This document shows, one piece after another, positions 46,239 to 54,294 of a stretch of DNA of 64,000 nt. How positions within the stretch are numbered: the stretch's first letter is position 1; the number at the start of each line of letters is the position of its first letter. The stretch lies in assembly GCF_057098645.1 (NCBI RefSeq), contig NZ_CM169472.1. One strand, given 5' to 3'. The position numbers and the translations under genes were made by a program. The notes below the pieces were generated by a model. It was not told the origin of the DNA, made no database searches, and saw nothing but the letters and a program-made list of their open reading frames with translations.

Positions 46239-46900
46239 ATATCTACGAAAGAATTGATGGCAGCAAATACCGAAATATTTGGGTAGCTGGCGACCTGCAC
46301 GGATGCTACACGAACCTGATGAACAAACTGGATACGATTGGATTCGACACCAAAAAAGACCTGCTCATCTCGGTTGGCGATTTGGTTGATCGCGGTACAG
46401 AGAACGTCGAATGTCTGGAATTAATCACATTCCCCTGGTTCAGAGCTGTGCGTGGAAACCATGAGCAAATGATGATTGATGGCTTATCAGAGCGTGGAAA
46501 CGTTAATCACTGGCTGCTTAATGGCGGTGGCTGGTTCTTTAATCTCGATTACGACAAAGAGACTCTGGCTAAAGTTCTTGCCCATAAAGCAGAAGAACTT
46601 CCGTTAATCATCGAACTGGTGAGCAAAGATAAAAAATATGTCATTTGCCACGCCGATTATCCTTGTGATAAATACGAGTTTGGAAAGCCAGTTGATCATC
46701 AGCAGGTAATCTGGAACCGCGAACGAATCAGCAACTCACAAGACGGGATCGTGAAAGAAATCAAAGGCGCGGACACGTTCATCTTTGGTCATACGCCAGC
46801 AGTGAAACCACTCAAATTTGCCAACCAGATGTATATCGATACTGGCGCAGTGTTCTGCGGAAACCTCACATTGATTCAGGTACAGGGAGAAGGCGCATGA
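46235..46900 (+). CDS. ninI: NinI Ser/Thr protein phosphatase (metallophosphatase)
   Basis: 221 aa, GDLHGC and GNHE metallophosphoesterase motifs. Confidence 0.9.
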
Positions 46901-46986
46901 GACTCGAAAGCGTAGCTAAATTTCATTCGCCAAAAAGCCCGATGATGAGCGACTCACTACTGGCCATAGTTTATTGGTTTTCGTAA
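46897..46986 (+). pseudogene. Q: Lambda Q antiterminator, N-terminal stub only
   Basis: [20 protein letters not shown] matches the start of lambda Q, then diverges and stops after 29 codons. Confidence 0.7.
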
Positions 46987-47111: not shown

Positions 47112-48071
47112 TTAAAAAAAGAAGGTGATTGCTCCATTTATAAATGAATAGTCATCCCCTGTCTTGAATTCTGATGTTACTTTATTAAATGCTAGTGTGA
47201 AGGCTACAGGTGCATACCCAATTGTTGCGCCAACTTGATATTCATCAACAGTTTTGTTTAGCGATACTGTTGTTTGTTTCGTCTGTATTGTTTTTCCTTC
47301 GAGAGTATAGTTGCGATTGACATCTCGTCTTTCCATACCTGCAAAAATCTTGTATTTGAATCCGCTTGTATCGGACATATGCATTAAACCACGGGGAGCC
47401 AGCAGACCAAAGCCATTATCCGAATTGAAGGTTTTATCATTACCAATGGCAATGGTTGCGCCATATGCTACATATTGAAATAAGTTTCCAGTAACAGCAG
47501 AAACTTCAGGGTATAATCCAACATTAGCACCTAAAATATCCATACTTGGTGTCATGGATAGCATCCCTTTTACAGTATAACCGTAGCGATTCTCTATTTG
47601 ATCATCCCATGCATGATATTTTTCTGCCCCAATAATCTCATGAGCTTTATTTTGTACTTTCTGACCGCCTGCGTCGGGGCCAACAACACCTATGTCAGTA
47701 CCTAATCGATAGCGAATCCAGTCATTCGCAAGGGAGTTCCATTCAATACCAGTGTGAGTGTATGCACTAAAAGCTCTGTCTCCAGTTACAGCTGTGTTGT
47801 GTCTTTTATTACTGCCTGATGGAGAGTAAATATCTTGCGCAATATGGAGAGATAATTGGCTCGAGTCTGAGATATCGTGGCTATATCCCAGAAATAAGCC
47901 TTGTGAGTAATCATCTCTGTTTTCATGTTTATTGCCATAAATATCATTAAGTATTGGTTGAAACTTCCCTGCATCATCATTTGCTAATGATAATGCAAGG
48001 CTGTTCGCGATAGCTGAACACGTGGTAAATGACAGAGCAATAAAGACGCCAGCGATGACACTTTTTTTCAT
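47112..48071 (-). CDS. Outer-membrane beta-barrel protein, LpxR (lipid A 3-prime-O-deacylase)-like by length and architecture
   Basis: 319 aa, signal peptide MKKSVIAGVFIALSFTTCSAIA, C-terminal aromatic residues (ITFFF); visibly AT-rich with a long AT-rich upstream region. Confidence 0.45.
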   Translation of the reverse strand: MKKSVIAGVFIALSFTTCSAIANSLALSLANDDAGKFQPILNDIYGNKHENRDDYSQGLFLGYSHDISDSSQLSLHIAQDIYSPSGSNKRHNTAVTGDRAFSAYTHTGIEWNSLANDWIRYRLGTDIGVVGPDAGGQKVQNKAHEIIGAEKYHAWDDQIENRYGYTVKGMLSMTPSMDILGANVGLYPEVSAVTGNLFQYVAYGATIAIGNDKTFNSDNGFGLLAPRGLMHMSDTSGFKYKIFAGMERRDVNRNYTLEGKTIQTKQTTVSLNKTVDEYQVGATIGYAPVAFTLAFNKVTSEFKTGDDYSFINGAITFFF

Positions 48072-48462: not shown

Positions 48463-49236
48463 GTGCTTATGTCGTTTCCCCGATTCGGTTTTGAACGATT
48501 ACCGAATGTTGAAGAATTATGCCAAAATATAGAAAGGATTTACTGCATGAATACCCAATATTTACAGTATGTTCGTGAGCAACTTATGGCAGCTACTGCT
48601 GACTTGAACGGAGCAACGAAAGGCCAGCTCGAAGCCTGGCAGGAGCATGCACAATTTGATACTGGTACATACAAACGAAAGAAGCCGCGCATTCTGGATG
48701 TGGTAACTGGCAAGATGATTACGCTGGATAATACGCCGACTTCCGGTAAGCAGTCGTACGCAAAAGGTTCATCCATTGCTTTGGTCAGCCCGGTTGAATT
48801 CTCAACCTCTTCATGGCGCCGCGCGGTTTTGTCTCTCGATGAACATCAGAAAGCATGGTTGCTTTGGTGTTACAGCGAAAGCGTTCGATGGGGGCATCAG
48901 GTCACCATAACGCAATGGGCATGGAGCGAGTTTAAAGATTTGTTAAGTAACAGAAAAATTGCAGGTAAGACACTGGATCGCCTGAAGACGTTAATCTGGC
49001 TGGCTGCACAGGATGTGAAGAGCGAACTTGCAGGGCGTGAGGCCTATGAATACCAGACACTGGCATCATTGGTGGGAGTGACAACAAAAAACTGGTCCGA
49101 GACATTTACTGAACGCTGGGTTGCAATGAAGCACATTTTTCTACAGCTTGATAGTGATGCTTTATTGCTTGTGACGAGAACACGTTCAAAACAAAAGGCA
49201 GCATTTTTACAGCAAAATATTGCAAAACTGGATTAA
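48463..49236 (+). CDS. Hypothetical protein, possibly a non-lambda late-gene regulator; start uncertain (alternative ATG at 48547)
   Basis: 257-aa ORF downstream of the Q stub, no zinc-finger cysteines; function not assignable from sequence. Confidence 0.35.
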   Translation: MLMSFPRFGFERLPNVEELCQNIERIYCMNTQYLQYVREQLMAATADLNGATKGQLEAWQEHAQFDTGTYKRKKPRILDVVTGKMITLDNTPTSGKQSYAKGSSIALVSPVEFSTSSWRRAVLSLDEHQKAWLLWCYSESVRWGHQVTITQWAWSEFKDLLSNRKIAGKTLDRLKTLIWLAAQDVKSELAGREAYEYQTLASLVGVTTKNWSETFTERWVAMKHIFLQLDSDALLLVTRTRSKQKAAFLQQNIAKLD

Positions 49237-49405
49237 AAGCCATATACTTCATGCAAATTTGGTATGTTGTAAAAAATGTATAAACCCGCTGCCGAGTGGG
49301 TTTTTTTTATGCCCTGAGTTGTACTTGTACGGTAAACATGCTGGCTGCTATGTAATAGAGTTTTTTTAGCCTGTAACCTCTTGACGGCATTGAATTGCTT
49401 TTGTT

Positions 49406-50164
49406 ATGAGTTGTAAGCCAATGTTATCATCTTGTATTGGGGTGGTTATGAAGGATGGTGCGCTGCTCAGGAGTTCTTCACTTTTTATTGCCTACATGGG
49501 ATGCCTTGGATGGGGGAGTGCTTATTTCTATGGATGGGGTACTTCTTTTTACTACGGCTTCCCATGGTGGATTGTAGGTGCAGGTGTTGATGATGTTGCC
49601 AGAAGTTTATTTTTTGCAGTTATCGTCATTGCTATATTTCTTATCGGTTGGGGTATTGGTGTTGTATTCTTTTTCGCAGTGAAAAGAAAACATTCTATGC
49701 AAGAGCTAAATGTATTTCGCCTTTATTTTGCTGTGGAATTATTGTTTGTGCCGGCAATTATTGAGTTTTCTATATTGAGACAGAAGATTCAGGTACCTCT
49801 TTTGCTACTGTCAGCAGCGATTGCGCTGGCGGTTACAATTTCGATAAGATCTTATGGGCGATTTTTATCGGTATCATGCTTCTATGATAAGCCATTTATA
49901 AAAAAACATTTTTTTGAGATTGTGATGATTGCTTTTGTGGCATATTTTTGGCTTTTTTCATTTCTGACAGGATATTACAAACCACAGTTTAAGAAAGAAT
50001 ATGAAATGATTAATTATAATGATGGTTGGTATTATGTTCTTGCTCGTTATGATAATTGTCTGGTTTTGTCTACTTCTTTCAATGCAGGTAGTAAAAGGTT
50101 TGTCATTTATCAATCAGCACAAGATAAGAATCTTCAGGTTGATATTGTAAGGACCAGAATTTAA
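49406..50164 (+). CDS. Hypothetical polytopic membrane protein (cargo gene in the Q-to-lysis region)
   Basis: 252-aa ORF, several hydrophobic helices, visibly AT-rich. Confidence 0.5.
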   Translation: MSCKPMLSSCIGVVMKDGALLRSSSLFIAYMGCLGWGSAYFYGWGTSFYYGFPWWIVGAGVDDVARSLFFAVIVIAIFLIGWGIGVVFFFAVKRKHSMQELNVFRLYFAVELLFVPAIIEFSILRQKIQVPLLLLSAAIALAVTISIRSYGRFLSVSCFYDKPFIKKHFFEIVMIAFVAYFWLFSFLTGYYKPQFKKEYEMINYNDGWYYVLARYDNCLVLSTSFNAGSKRFVIYQSAQDKNLQVDIVRTRI

Positions 50165-50297
50165 TTGGCTGCATAAATAATATTTTAAGTTGCAAGTTGG
50201 CTATTCGTAGGAATAGAACCTTAGGCATGCTGAATGCGTTTTCTGAACATTGTTTTATAAACTGTGTCTGCTTGCTGTTGTGATCCTGCTTTTAGTG

Positions 50298-50408
50298 ATG
50301 GTGATGATGGATTTCACCAGCAGGATAATGTTGGTACTGACTGATGGCGCTCTGGTCTGCGGCATTGTGGTATTGCTGTGGCCGATGATGAAAGAACAGA
50401 ATGAATAA
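50298..50408 (+). CDS. Putative 36-aa hydrophobic peptide
   Basis: MVMMDFTSRIMLVLTDGALVCGIVVLLWPMMKEQNE, one TM-like segment; below the ORF-track cutoff. Confidence 0.3.
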   Translation: MVMMDFTSRIMLVLTDGALVCGIVVLLWPMMKEQNE

Positions 50409-50593
50409 TTCTTGACTTTTTTGTTTACTGTTTATTAAAAAATCAACCGCATGGTGAATCCTCCTTGGAGGGGCTAAATGATCGAGTTTTAAGGGCACGT
50501 AGCGAGTTCTGTTTGATCATTGCAGAACTTAGCGGGAGGCGCCATGCGTACATCACTAGTGTTATTCCTTTTATCATTTTCCTTGTGAGTTCT

Positions 50594-50620
50594 GGCTGCG
50601 CATTGCGCAGCCTTTTTTTT
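50594..50620 (+). terminator. Intrinsic terminator (possible late-leader terminator)
   Basis: ggctgcgca-t-tgcgcagcc followed by TTTTTTTT. Confidence 0.6.
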
Positions 50621-50706
50621 ATGACCTGCCACTGGCAGATGGTCATCCTGTGATTTGATTCCGCTTCCGGCTTTTTAACTCTGTTCCTCTACACGGGAGA
50701 AATTCG

Positions 50707-52556
50707 ATGTCGATTAAACATTACGATGTTGTCAGGGCGGCGTCGCCGTCAGACCTTGCGGAAAAGCTGACACACAAACTGAAAGAGGGCTGGCAGCCAT
50801 ACGGCGGACCGGTTGCCATTACGCCGTACACACTGATGCAGGCGGTGGCTATTGAAGGAGAGCCACAGGTCGGCCCTTCATCTGAGCCGGATTGGTACTA
50901 CGTCATCGTACTGGCCGGGCAGTCCAATGCCATGGCTTACGGTGAAGGGCTTCCGCTGCCGGATTCATACGATGCTCCGGATCCGCGCATTAAACAGCTG
51001 GCGCGCCGCAGTACAGTGACGCCGGGCGGGGCTGCCTGCAGATATAACGATATTATTCCGGCTGACCACTGTCTGCATGATGTGCAGGATATGAGTACGC
51101 TGAATCATCCGAGGGCTGACCTGAGCAAAGGGCAGTACGGCTGTGTCGGTCAGGGTTTACATATTGCCAAAAAACTGCTCCCGTATATCCCGAATAACGC
51201 GGGGATCCTGCTGGTACCATGCTGTCGTGGTGGTTCGGCATTTACCCAGGGCGCGGAGGGGACATTCAGCGAGTCCACGGGGGCCAGTCAGGATTCGGCA
51301 CGCTGGGGGTGGGCAAGCCGTTATATCAGGATCTGATTTCCCGCACAAAAGCGGCATTGCAGAAAAATCCCAAAAACGTTCTGCTGGCCGTCTGCTGGAT
51401 GCAGGGTGAGTTTGACATGAGCGCCGCCACCCACGCACAGCAACCTGCGCTGTTTACAGCCATGCTGACACAGTTTCGTGCTGACCTCTCCGTGTTTAAC
51501 GCGCAGTGCCATGGTGGCAGTGCTGCAGATGTGCCGTGGATTTGTGGTGACACGACGTATTACTGGAAAAATACATACGCTACCCAGTACGACACCGTGT
51601 ACGGCGGGTATAAAAACAGGGAGAGTGAGGGCGTTTATTTTGTGCCCTTCATGACAGACGGTAACGGCGTCAATACCGCCACTAACGCGCCGGCAGAAGA
51701 TCCGGATATTCCGGCATCAGGATATTACGGTGCGGCATCGAGAACGAATGGAAACCAGGTATCATCAAACCGCCCGACACATTTCAGTTCATGGGCGCGC
51801 AGGAGCATTATTCCGGATCGTCTGGCAACCGCTATTCTGAACGCAGCCGGGCGCACCTCAGCCTTCATCAGTGGTAAGGCACCGGAAATCAAACCCTCGC
51901 CCGGCGGCAACACGCCATCGGGTCCGTCTGCAGATACGTCCGTTCGCACAATCTCCCTGCTGCCGGCAGCCGGAGAGGCTGCTGCGCAGGGCTGGAGCAT
52001 TAAGGATGGCGGAATTCAGTTGTCAGATGGTGTATTTAAGATCACCAAGCAGAGCAATAAAACCTGGTCCCTGACGCATCCGGTGGATGACGCAATTACC
52101 CTGCTGACACAGGGCGGCAGACTGACCTGTAAGTTCCGCCTGTCAGGCGCACTGACCAACAATCAGTTCGGGCTGGGGATTTATCTGTATACGGATGCTC
52201 CCGTTCCTGATGGTGTGGCGATGACGGGTACCGGTAATCCGTTCCTGATGTCGTACTTCACTCAGACCACTGACGGCAGAGTGAATCTGATGCATCACAG
52301 GAAAGCCGGAAACACGAAGCTGGGGGAGTTCGGCGATTACGGTAACGACTGGCAGACGCTGGAGCTGGTGTTCACCGCCGGCAGTGCCACGGTTACTCCG
52401 AAACTGAATGGAGTGGCTGGCCCGGCATTCCAGGTTATAAAAGACAGTCTGACACTGGGACTGAATGCGCTGACGCTGACGGATGTTACAAAAAATGCAG
52501 CGTATGGCGTTGAGATAGAAAGTCTGATGCTGGAGATAAATGCACCGGCAGCATAA
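50707..52556 (+). pseudogene. Prophage sialate O-acetylesterase-like (NanS-p family) gene, split by a frameshift at a G5 run
   Basis: N-terminal esterase half (GQSN motif) in ORF 50707..51336 and C-terminal half in ORF 51219..52556; the frames meet at the G-run near 51281-51285. Confidence 0.6.
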
Positions 52557-52728: not shown

Positions 52729-53756
<1,028 letters not shown>

Positions 53757-53760
<4 letters not shown>

Positions 53761-54197
53761 TGCCACTGCTGGATAAGCTGCGTGAGCAGTACGGGGTCGG
53801 ACCGCTATGCAGCGAACTGCATATTGCCCCGTCAACGTATTACCACTGTCAGCAACAGCGACATCATCCGGATAAACGCAGTGCCCGTGCGCAGCGCGAT
53901 GACTGGCTGAAGAAAGAGATACAGCGCGTATACGATGAAAATCACAAGGTATACGGTGTGCGTAAAGTCTGGCGTCAGTTGTTACGGGAAGGTATCAGAG
54001 TGGCCAGATGCACTGTGGCACGTCTCATGGCGGTTATGGGACTTGCCGGTGTTCTCCGGGGTAAAAAGGTCCGTACGACCATCAGCCGGAAAGCCGTTGC
54101 CGCAGGCGACCGCGTAAACCGTCAGTTCGTGGCAGAACGACCTGACCAGCTGTGGGTGGCTGATTTTACTTACGTCAGCACATGGCAGGGCTTCGTG
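53757..54197 (+). pseudogene. IS629-like OrfB, N-terminal part (copy 2), interrupted by IS21-family insertion
   Basis: Matches copy-1 OrfB up to ...[14 protein letters not shown], then reads into the foreign element. Confidence 0.8.
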
Positions 54198-54294
54198 CGT
54201 ATTCCGCTCTATTCGATCACGGATTGGCATCGAAGTCCGATCAGCGATTCGCATCCATTCGATCAACCGGGAACTTAACTTTTTCTACCGCTTT

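What the first reader, a model, noticed from the sequence alone, without database searches (positions are those of the whole stretch)
50298..50408. Unannotated 36-codon hydrophobic peptide next to a putative small-RNA region
Seen: ATG-initiated ORF MVMMDFTSRIMLVLTDGALVCGIVVLLWPMMKEQNE with one TM-like segment, followed by a promoter-like element and a strongly structured, terminator-ended 150-200-nt region. Established: small membrane peptides paired with structured RNAs occur in type I toxin-antitoxin loci and in phage late leaders. Inference only: it could be a small toxin or regulatory peptide. It does not match any type I toxin I can recall.
Basis: inference. Interest (0 to 1): 0.35.

Follow-up and report, generated by a model that had tools for sequence, protein, structure and literature searches.

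The report
Known phage TciB gene beside PasD2
The small hydrophobic ORF is part of an already annotated 52-codon prophage gene (TciB, Pfam DUF3927), and the structured RNA after it is the published Hfq-dependent small RNA PasD2, so this is an ordinary pair of neighbouring prophage cargo genes, not a new toxin-antitoxin locus.

Summary
The sequence features are real, but the ORF is neither unannotated nor new. ORF 50298-50408 is the last 36 codons of a 52-codon ORF (50250-50408, TTG start). RefSeq annotates it as WP_000499454.1, a DUF3927 protein. It is gene E2348C_0687 in EPEC E2348/69 and "TciB" in phage 434. It aligns end to end with phage P1 TciB.

In seven other lineages sampled, tciB directly follows a TerB-domain gene (P1 tciA), with overlapping or nearly touching stop and start codons. 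The window copy has no TerB gene and no upstream ribosome-binding site. It sits after an unrelated membrane-protein gene.

The RNA at 50449-50620 is 100% identical to PasD2, an sRNA validated by northern blot and RIL-seq. It has its own promoter, which starts 4 nt after the tciB stop codon.

The Q-dependent late promoter and its terminator most likely lie 1.2 kb upstream (49220-49312). tciB therefore occupies the late-operon cargo slot that stx occupies in Stx phages.

PasD2 is on the same strand as tciB, does not overlap it, and pairs with its mRNA no better than chance. tciB mRNA is about 300-fold rarer than PasD2 in lysogens. The type I toxin-antitoxin reading is not supported. TciB function remains untested, and this copy may be a relic.

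The parts
50250..50408 (+). tciB (DUF3927/PF13064) CDS: 52 codons, TTG start, TAA stop
   Evidence: Pfam PF13064 at 53 bits against a cutoff of 25. PHROG 1470 'TciB-like', E = 2.5e-17. Annotated as WP_000499454.1 in RefSeq and as TciB in phage 434. Aligns 1-52 with P1 TciB at 42% identity without gaps. The TTG aligns with homologues' GTG/ATG start codons.
50298..50408 (+).
   Evidence: (51 bits on its own)
50412..50441 (+). Promoter of PasD2: -35 TTGACT at 50412-50417; -10 TAAAAA at 50436-50441 (or TTAAAA at 50435-50440)
   Evidence: Read from the sequence. Conserved in PasD-type and STnc100-type loci. The published PasD2 5' end maps 8 nt downstream, at 50449. Function as a promoter is inferred.
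50449..50620 (+). PasD2 small RNA, 172 nt (Hfq-dependent, trans-acting; EHEC homologue EcOnc13; related to Rfam STnc100)
   Evidence: 100% identical over 241 aligned nt to the E2348/69 PasD2 locus, 741157-741328. Rfam STnc100 hit of 41.4 bits, E = 9e-7, below the gathering score of 47. Fold z = -3.07.
50582..50589 (+). PasD2 seed region CUUGUGAG (published core UGUGAG)
   Evidence: PMC8550237 fig. S5 and table S7; position located
50594..50620 (+). Intrinsic terminator of PasD2, and of any tciB read-through transcript
   Evidence: 8-bp stem with 7 GC pairs, followed by T8
49220..49312 (+). Probable late promoter pR' with its Q-utilisation region, a short leader and terminator tR': TTGCAA-17-TATACT at 49220-49248, a -10-like TGGTATGTT at 49260-49268, and a hairpin at 49282-49303 followed by a T run
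   Evidence: Promoter and terminator scan. The block is conserved with Q82-like Q genes in phages PhiR47_2 and PPompW. In PhiR47_2 it is the only promoter-like site on the coding strand, with terminator-like hairpins, between Q and the holin gene. Assignment is inferred.
48547..49236 (+). Q antiterminator, phage-82 type (PF06323)
49421..50164 (+). 247-aa membrane protein (PF27470 'TfpB' family, phrog_1521) that occupies the position TerB/TciA holds upstream of tciB in other lineages
47112..48071 (-). lpxR (lipid A deacylase) cargo gene. It contains a CTCACAAG site at 47900-47907 that is complementary to the PasD2 seed.
   Evidence: The RIL-seq/MEME site in E2348C_0684 comes from PMC8550237.
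50707..52556 (+). DUF1737/SASA sialate-esterase gene (nanS-p type), split by a frameshift in this window

Best explanation
The ORF is tciB. It encodes a 52-residue, all-helical small membrane protein of the phage family DUF3927. The prophage is lambdoid, of the phage 434 / Q82 type.

The gene lies in the late operon, downstream of Q, the probable pR' and tR', and upstream of the esterase and lysis genes. This is the cargo slot that stx occupies in Stx phages.

The RNA after it is the independent sRNA gene pasD2. Its sigma-70 promoter begins 4 nt after the tciB stop codon. PasD2 acts in trans on other mRNAs through a UGUGAG seed. The two genes are neighbours in a conserved cassette, not a toxin and its antidote.

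Across the family, tciB is the second gene of a TerB-tciB pair whose stop and start codons overlap or nearly touch (P1 tciA-tciB). The most likely role (inference) is therefore a membrane-embedded partner or anchor of a TerB-domain protein, acting on the cell envelope during phage development.

In this window, recombination has replaced TerB and the native ribosome-binding site with an unrelated membrane-protein gene. This copy is an orphan. If it is made at all, this should happen mainly when Q lets late transcription read through tR'.

Shown: identity, family, gene order, loss of TerB, identity of the RNA, lack of complementarity. From the literature: PasD2 expression, Hfq dependence and low tciB mRNA. 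Inferred: the pR'/tR' assignment, late expression, the TerB partnership and any activity.
For: - Family membership: Pfam and PHROG hits, identical annotated proteins and an end-to-end alignment with P1 TciB.
- The family is a real gene family. It has 122 clusters at 50% identity, most of them about 50-64 aa long, many matching nearly the whole profile. It has a conserved D21-F-T-S...S28...D32-G...W44-P45 pattern. dN/dS is 0.16-0.5 between deep pairs.
- TerB lies immediately upstream in P1, phage Evi, L099-101, L102, L103, L105 and L087/L093/L095.
- No TerB is present anywhere in the window. Homology to TerB-linked copies ends within a few codons of the start codon.
- PasD2 identity. An STnc100/PasD RNA follows tciB within about 10 nt in every E. 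coli lambdoid locus examined.
- The pR'/tR' block after Q is conserved in Q82-type phages.
- EPEC RNA-seq BaseMean values: tciB 36.7, pasD2 11,017, and the neighbouring Q, membrane-protein and esterase genes 69-226.
- AlphaFold2 model: a single helix spanning residues 2-51, mean pLDDT 81.6.
Against: - No experiment assigns any activity to a DUF3927 protein. The 'tci' name in P1 rests on TerB homology only, and P1 tciB is non-essential.
- The window copy has a TTG start with no Shine-Dalgarno sequence and no upstream gene ending at its start codon.
- It carries Leu at the nearly invariant Ser28 position.
- Among E. coli copies dN/dS is 0.3-2, on very small counts.
- Many variants carry tail frameshifts or in-frame repeats.
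- AlphaFold2 gave one long helix rather than a hairpin, so membrane topology is unresolved.
- TerB adjacency was sampled in seven lineages, not surveyed across the whole family.
Confidence: 0.75

Rival explanations
1. This tciB copy is a non-functional relic. When the lpxR/tfpB-like cargo and the Q82 module replaced TerB, tciB lost its upstream partner gene and its ribosome-binding site. It persists only because its 3' end abuts the promoter of the useful sRNA gene pasD2 and because the whole module spread recently.
For: - TTG start without a Shine-Dalgarno sequence, with an in-frame stop two codons upstream.
- The window has no TerB.
- tciB mRNA is low in lysogens.
- Ser28 is replaced by Leu.
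- Weak constraint among E. coli copies: 1 synonymous against 6 non-synonymous changes versus L106, and 3 against 9 between L108 and L109.
- Length and frame variants are common.
- 84 of the 97 copies found (81 + 2 + 1 DNA variants, all encoding the same protein) point to recent spread, not to maintained selection.
Against: - The frame is intact in 677 genomes and in the viable phage 434.
- The first hydrophobic segment has diverged at most codons yet stays hydrophobic and in frame.
- The TTG is conserved in all window-type variants examined.
- Late-operon genes are expected to be silent in lysogens anyway.
Confidence: 0.3
2. Type I toxin-antitoxin locus: the hydrophobic peptide is a membrane toxin whose translation is held down by the adjacent structured RNA.
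For: Small hydrophobic ORF next to an abundant, structured, Hfq-binding RNA. tciB mRNA is much rarer than the RNA.
Against: - PasD2 is co-directional with tciB and does not overlap it.
- Predicted PasD2-tciB mRNA pairing is no better than chance, and there is no CUCACA seed site.
- No chimeras with E2348C_0687 appear in the stored part of the RIL-seq table.
- No hit to any type I toxin or defence model.
- The family's conserved partner is a TerB protein gene, not an RNA.
- tciB homologues outside E. coli lambdoids lack the RNA. In L099 only 108 nt separate tciB from the holin gene.
- No antisense promoter was called across the ORF.
Confidence: 0.03
3. The structured RNA is the phage late leader (the pR'-tR' '6S-like' transcript on which Q acts), and the ORF is the last gene of the early operon.
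For: - A TTGACT -35 identical to that of lambda pR' (own knowledge).
- A terminated RNA of about 170 nt, similar in size to lambda 6S RNA.
- StxS shows that such leaders can become sRNAs (PMC7547250).
Against: - A promoter, a -10-like pause element and a terminator lie directly after Q at 49220-49312. This block is conserved together with Q82-type Q genes in phages where it is the only coding-strand promoter-like site between Q and the holin gene.
- The same STnc100/PasD RNA occurs downstream of both Q families, PF03589 and PF06323. A Q-specific site should not do this.
- STnc100 lies downstream of stx2B in Stx2 phages, whose pR' is upstream of stx (PMC12370729; PMC7547250).
Confidence: 0.05
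4. TciB is a lysis-timing factor (holin- or antiholin-like) or a membrane-acting exclusion factor that works on its own, without TerB.
For: Small helical membrane protein encoded in the late region just upstream of the lysis cassette. PHROG category 'moron, auxiliary metabolic gene and host takeover'.
Against: - No holin family hit.
- A complete class II holin, endolysin and spanin set is present downstream.
- P1 tciB is non-essential.
- The conserved TerB coupling argues for a two-protein unit.
Confidence: 0.07

Closest known systems
Phage P1 TciB (tciA-tciB-tciC operon) / Pfam DUF3927 (PF13064) / PHROG 1470
   Same: Same length and same two hydrophobic stretches. Same D-F-T-S...D-G...W-P motif. 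42% identity over residues 1-52 without gaps. Found in temperate phages and prophages. Function untested in both.
   Different: P1 and the other lineages sampled have a TerB-domain gene (tciA) ending at the tciB start codon. The window copy has none. It starts with TTG without a ribosome-binding site and carries Leu at the nearly invariant Ser28. P1 has tciC and a tRNA after tciB, not an STnc100/PasD RNA.
PasD1/PasD2 sRNAs of EPEC E2348/69 (EcOnc13 in EHEC); Rfam STnc100 (RF02076)
   Same: The window RNA is identical in sequence to PasD2. It has the same neighbours reported for PasD: Q, LpxR and the sialate esterase (bioRxiv 10.64898/2026.05.13.724894).
   Different: It scores below the STnc100 gathering threshold (41.4 against 47 bits). 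It shares only the 5' closing stem, the first hairpin and the terminator with true STnc100 copies.
stx / StxS arrangement in Stx phages (cargo genes between pR'-tR' and the nanS-p/lysis genes)
   Same: Same slot in the late operon. A short terminated leader follows Q, then cargo genes, then an STnc100-family RNA, then the esterase and the lysis genes.
   Different: The cargo here is a TfpB-like membrane protein plus tciB instead of tRNAs and stxAB. The predicted leader is about 54 nt, not 258 nt, and was not tested.
Type I toxin-antitoxin systems (hok/sok, ldr/rdl, ibs/sib, tisB/istR, zor/orz)
   Same: A small hydrophobic ORF near an abundant structured RNA.
   Different: No antisense overlap, no complementarity above chance and no family match. 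The conserved partner is a protein gene.

Membership tests
DUF3927 / TciB (PF13064, phrog_1470) | Profile HMM match above the curated threshold | tested here: met
   53 bits against a cutoff of 25, E = 3.4e-14. PHROG 1470, E = 2.5e-17.
DUF3927 / TciB (PF13064, phrog_1470) | Protein of about 50-60 residues with two hydrophobic helical stretches, a basic N-terminus and a basic/polar tail | tested here: met
   52 aa. Hydropathy shows two hydrophobic stretches. The AlphaFold2 model is all-helical. The family alignment covers residues 1-52.
DUF3927 / TciB (PF13064, phrog_1470) | Conserved D21-F-T-S ... S28 ... D32-G ... W44-P45 pattern | tested here: met
   All positions are present except S28, which is Leu in the window copy.
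DUF3927 / TciB (PF13064, phrog_1470) | TerB-domain gene (TciA) immediately upstream, with its stop codon overlapping or within a few nt of the tciB start | tested here: not met
   Present in P1, Evi, L099-103, L105 and L087/L093/L095. Absent from the whole window. This is a feature of the usual gene context, not of the protein family itself.
PasD sRNA (PasD1/PasD2, EcOnc13) | Sequence identity to the published PasD2 gene, including the UGUGAG seed and the terminator | tested here: met
   241 of 241 nt identical to the E2348/69 locus that contains 741157-741328.
PasD sRNA (PasD1/PasD2, EcOnc13) | Expressed as a discrete Hfq-dependent RNA of about 172 nt | not testable with these tools
   Literature only: northern blot, RNA-seq and RIL-seq in EPEC (PMC8550237).
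Rfam STnc100 (RF02076) | Covariance-model score at or above the gathering threshold | tested here: not met
   41.4 bits against 47, E = 9e-7, full model length matched. True STnc100 copies score 101.6 bits (L087). It is a relative, not a member by Rfam's cutoff.
Type I toxin-antitoxin | RNA antitoxin that is antisense to, or demonstrably complementary to, the toxin mRNA | tested here: not met
   Same strand and no overlap. The duplex energy is reached by 29% of shuffles and 51% of other window segments. No seed site.
Type I toxin-antitoxin | Peptide belongs to a known type I toxin family | tested here: not met
   No Pfam, NCBIfam or PADLOC hit other than DUF3927.
Type I toxin-antitoxin | Peptide is toxic when overexpressed and is neutralised by the RNA | not testable with these tools
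   Requires experiment.
Lambdoid late leader (pR'-tR' 6S-type RNA) | Starts at the Q-responsive promoter directly after Q and is conserved together with the Q type | tested here: not met
   This applies to PasD2. A better candidate lies at 49220-49312. The PasD/STnc100 RNA occurs with both Q families.

The most novel reading that the evidence does not exclude
In E. coli lambdoid prophages, [TerB]-TciB-STnc100/PasD forms one conserved cargo cassette. The tciB stop codon abuts or overlaps the sRNA's -35 hexamer. In this reading TciB is the membrane subunit of a phage TerB system that alters envelope physiology during lytic growth or superinfection (for example colicin or phage tolerance), and orphan copies such as this one still act, alone or with TerB supplied by sibling prophages. 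Neither this physical link between protein gene and sRNA promoter nor the TerB-TciB partnership is stated explicitly in the papers I read.
Probability: 0.15. Interest if true: 0.4.

Novelty: already known. Interest (0 to 1): 0.15.

Why it matters
Its importance is modest. The result removes a false lead: this is not a new type I toxin locus. It attaches correct names to both features, TciB/DUF3927 and PasD2.

Two points may help annotators and sRNA researchers. First, gene callers place spurious ORFs over PasD2. Second, tciB and the STnc100/PasD promoter are physically joined, so any manipulation of one can disturb the other.

The untested TerB-TciB pairing is widespread in temperate phages (122 clusters at 50% identity). 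It would be a reasonable small project for anyone studying TerB-domain proteins or phage cargo genes.

Tried and rejected
1. Type I toxin-antitoxin. Rejected on strand, overlap, complementarity and family tests.

2. PasD2 as the pR'-tR' late leader. Rejected in favour of 49220-49312.

3. The upstream 247-aa membrane protein as TciB's functional partner. Rejected because its homologues occur without DUF3927, next to eltAB on ETEC plasmids and paired with lpxR in Citrobacter rodentium.

4. A mini-ORF in PasD2 (GGAGG-N6-AUG AUC GAG UUU UAA). Considered and dropped: the GGAGG is the 3' arm of the conserved first hairpin.

5. The 62-aa ORF across PasD2 (50465-50653, called 'putative membrane protein' in phage 434) and PGAP's minus-strand pseudo-CDS. 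Judged spurious, because both run through the sRNA and its terminator.

6. The viral-contig scan returned 80 loci that almost all carry the same tciB sequence, so it added no divergence for a selection test. Divergent DNA had to be fetched protein by protein.

7. The AlphaFold2 monomer gave one long helix and does not settle hairpin versus single-pass topology. No fold search was run, because a single helix gives meaningless matches.

8. RNAalifold on 7 PasD/STnc100 sequences found little covariation, with one compensatory pair. Structural support rests on the Rfam model and published work.

9. The Lobocka 2004 paper on the P1 genome could not be retrieved.

Full report
**Observation.** An ATG ORF of 36 codons plus stop lies at 50298-50408 on the + strand with the stated translation. 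Four bases after its TAA stop comes a TTGACT hexamer (50412-50417). A 172-nt stretch follows (50449-50620) that folds to -58 kcal/mol, with z = -3.07 against 200 dinucleotide shuffles. It ends in an 8-bp GC-rich hairpin plus T8. Two parts of the description fail: the ORF is annotated in public records, and it is longer than 36 codons.

**What the ORF is.** The open frame begins at TTG 50250 and encodes 52 residues: MFYKLCLLAVVILLLVMVMMDFTSRIMLVLTDGALVCGIVVLLWPMMKEQNE.
- It matches Pfam DUF3927 (PF13064) at 53 bits against a cutoff of 25.
- It matches PHROG 1470, 'TciB-like inhibition of cell division or resistance to colicin'.
- The identical protein is WP_000499454.1 in RefSeq E. coli genomes. 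677 of 5,426 complete genomes carry at least 80% of the 571-nt query around it.
- It is E2348C_0687 in the annotation used for EPEC E2348/69 (PMC8550237).
- It is annotated 'TciB' in the classical lambdoid phage 434 (OL657226).
- Phage P1 TciB aligns with it from residue 1 to 52 without gaps at 42% identity.

**Family anatomy and the start codon.** A profile search of 1.84 billion representative proteins found 122 clusters at 50% identity. Most are 50-64 residues long, and many match nearly the whole profile. An alignment of 40 diverse members shows the following layout:
- a basic N-terminus (K/R at positions 4-6);
- a first hydrophobic stretch;
- a nearly invariant Asp21 followed by F-T-S;
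- Ser28 and Asp32-Gly;
- a second hydrophobic stretch ending in Trp44-Pro45;
- a Lys and a short polar tail.

The polar residues 21, 24/25, 28 and 32 are spaced so that they would lie on one face of a helix. AlphaFold2 with this alignment gives one continuous helix over residues 2-51, mean pLDDT 81.6. Whether the protein is a hairpin or another arrangement in the membrane is therefore unresolved. The window's TTG aligns exactly with the GTG or ATG start codons of homologues, and an in-frame stop lies two codons upstream.

**Usual context, and what is different here.** In seven lineages outside the window type, a TerB-domain gene (PF05099, about 142-158 aa, or TerB-like by sequence) lies immediately upstream. 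Its stop codon overlaps the tciB start (GTGA or ATGA type) or ends within a few bases of it. In the E. coli TerB-linked copies a GGAG also sits about 10 nt upstream. The seven lineages are:
- P1 (tciA-tciB);
- phage Evi;
- three unrelated contig groups;
- a short contig whose upstream fragment has a TerB-like C-terminus;
- E. coli prophage loci L087/L093/L095, where tblastn finds TerB even though gene callers missed it.

The window contains no TerB anywhere. DNA homology to TerB-linked copies begins within a few codons of the tciB start codon and disappears upstream. The 30 bases before the TTG contain no Shine-Dalgarno sequence.

The upstream gene is instead a 247-aa membrane protein of the PF27470 'TfpB' family. 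Its homologues occur without DUF3927 next to the LT enterotoxin genes on ETEC plasmids, and divergently paired with lpxR in the Citrobacter rodentium chromosome. The adjacency in the window is therefore a recombination joint, not a partnership. This tciB is an orphan.

**The RNA.** The segment 50400-50640 is identical at all 241 positions to the E2348/69 locus that contains PasD2 (NC_011601.1 741157-741328). PasD2 therefore maps to 50449-50620. According to PMC8550237:
- PasD1 and PasD2 were found by RIL-seq and confirmed by northern blot;
- they depend on Hfq;
- they carry a UGUGAG seed, which is window 50584-50589;
- they have a homologue, EcOnc13, in EHEC.

A 2026 preprint (10.64898/2026.05.13.724894) relates PasD to Rfam STnc100. 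It lists Q, LpxR and the sialate esterase as PasD's conserved neighbours, which is exactly the arrangement in the window. Rfam scores the window RNA at 41.4 bits for STnc100, below the gathering score of 47.

In every E. coli lambdoid locus I examined, a PasD-type or STnc100-type RNA follows tciB. The conserved TTGAC/TT -35 hexamer either starts 4 nt after the tciB stop codon or contains it. This explains why the protein's tail varies by frameshift (KEQNE versus KRNSLHNA). Family members outside this group lack the RNA. In L099, for example, only 108 nt separate tciB from the holin gene.

**Where the late promoter is.** The Q gene (48547-49236) is of the phage 82 type (PF06323; 89.6% identical to Q82 over its last 337 nt). 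Overlapping its stop codon is TTGCAA-17-TATACT (49220-49248). A -10-like TGGTATGTT follows (49260-49268), then a hairpin plus T run (49282-49308). This block is conserved in other phages with Q82-type Q genes. In PhiR47_2 it is the only promoter-like site on the coding strand between Q and the holin gene, followed by terminator-like hairpins.

I infer that this is pR', the Q-utilisation site and tR'. On that reading the TfpB-like gene, tciB and pasD2 lie inside the late operon, in the slot that stx occupies in Stx phages. STnc100 is reported 75 nt downstream of stx2B (PMC12370729), and StxS is the pR'-tR' leader upstream of stx (PMC7547250). PasD/STnc100 RNAs occur with both Q families. This also argues against PasD2 being a Q-specific leader.

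**Expression evidence (literature).** In EPEC RNA-seq under the activating condition, DESeq2 BaseMean values were as follows (PMC8550237 table S2):

| Gene | BaseMean |
|---|---|
| tciB (E2348C_0687) | 36.7 |
| Q | 69 |
| TfpB-like gene | 226 |
| esterase | 102 |
| lpxR | 2,936 |
| pasD2 | 11,017 |

tciB (159 nt) and pasD2 (172 nt) are of similar length. The roughly 300-fold difference therefore means PasD2 comes from its own promoter, while tciB is nearly silent in lysogens, as expected for a late-operon gene behind a terminator. No chimera involving E2348C_0687 appears in the stored part of the RIL-seq table (that file was truncated when stored).

**Test of the toxin-antitoxin idea.**
- PasD2 is co-directional with tciB and does not overlap it.
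- Predicted pairing between PasD2 and the tciB mRNA (50200-50420) is matched or beaten by 29% of shuffles and by 51% of other window segments.
- The mRNA has no CUCACA seed site.
- No minus-strand promoter-like site was called across the ORF.
- The peptide matches no toxin or defence model.

PasD2 does have a seed-complementary site in the neighbouring lpxR CDS (47900-47907, minus strand). This is the site reported for E2348C_0684.

**Selection.** Nei-Gojobori estimates on 13 tciB genes give dN/dS of 0.16-0.5 for deep pairs, with dS saturated, which fits a real coding family. Among E. coli copies the counts are tiny and dN/dS ranges from 0.3 to about 2. Examples are window versus L108 (5 synonymous, 6 non-synonymous), window versus L106 (1 and 6), and L108 versus L109 (3 and 9). 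Many variants carry in-frame repeats or tail frameshifts. Constraint on the E. coli prophage copies looks weak.

**Most likely mechanism.** TciB is a small helical membrane protein whose conserved partner is a TerB-domain protein made from the same message. The likeliest role is a membrane-embedded partner or anchor for that protein, acting on the envelope during phage development. This is inference. [quoted passage not shown] The window copy has lost TerB and its native initiation region. It would be produced, if at all, from Q-antiterminated late transcripts. I put about 0.3 on it being an untranslated relic that persists beside a useful sRNA gene.

**Verdict.** Both features are already known: an annotated DUF3927/TciB gene and the published PasD2 sRNA. 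The toxin-antitoxin and late-leader interpretations are not supported. Interest is low. What remains open is the untested TerB-TciB partnership and the physical joining of tciB to the STnc100/PasD promoter.

Noticed in passing
window 49220-49312 (+): Probable late promoter pR' with a sigma-70 pause-like element and terminator tR', directly after the Q82-type Q gene. The predicted leader is only about 54 nt. There is a weak Rfam STnc240 hit at 49243-49312 (28 bits against a gathering score of 55).
   Followed up: partly
window 49421-50164 (+); L110-L115: A 247-aa membrane protein of the PF27470 'TfpB' family with low G+C (0.36). Homologues sit next to the LT enterotoxin genes eltAB on ETEC plasmids. 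They are also divergently paired with lpxR in the Citrobacter rodentium chromosome. This suggests lpxR and the tfpB-like gene were captured as a unit and later split here by the ylcG-Q module.
   Followed up: partly
window 47900-47907 (-) within lpxR 47112-48071: CTCACAAG, complementary to the PasD2 seed, lies inside the neighbouring prophage lpxR gene. RIL-seq in EPEC reported this same site as a PasD2 target. The sRNA's local target may therefore be the lipid A deacylase mRNA, not tciB.
   Followed up: partly
window 50707-51336 and 51219-52556 (+): The DUF1737/SASA sialate esterase gene (nanS-p type) is split into two overlapping ORFs by a frameshift. It is intact (1,851 nt) in E2348/69 and in phage 434.
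   Followed up: no
window 50465-50653 (+) and about 50489-50730 (-): Two public annotations place protein-coding calls on top of PasD2: a 62-aa 'putative membrane protein' in phage 434 and a PGAP pseudo-CDS on the opposite strand. Both are probably spurious.
   Followed up: partly
window 52729-54278: IS3-family transposase pieces in both orientations (orfA/orfB-like ORFs at 53434-54278 and a reverse rve-type ORF at 52729-53472) lie directly downstream of the broken esterase gene, where the holin and lysis genes sit in related prophages.
   Followed up: no
window about 46898-46969 (+), next to lpxR: RefSeq annotates a short N-terminal fragment of a lambda-type Q antiterminator just upstream of lpxR in identical loci. 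This marks where the lpxR/Q82 module replaced an older Q gene (the '434B nonhomology' region of phage 434).
   Followed up: no
proteins P0030, P0048, P0066, P0071 (E. albertii); P0062, P0068 (E. coli): DUF3927 variants carry in-frame tandem repeats inside the second helix, (GGWRLEA)n, or duplicated VVM / LLWP units. Some tails are frameshifted and read into the sRNA promoter. These are signs of weak constraint in prophage copies.
   Followed up: no
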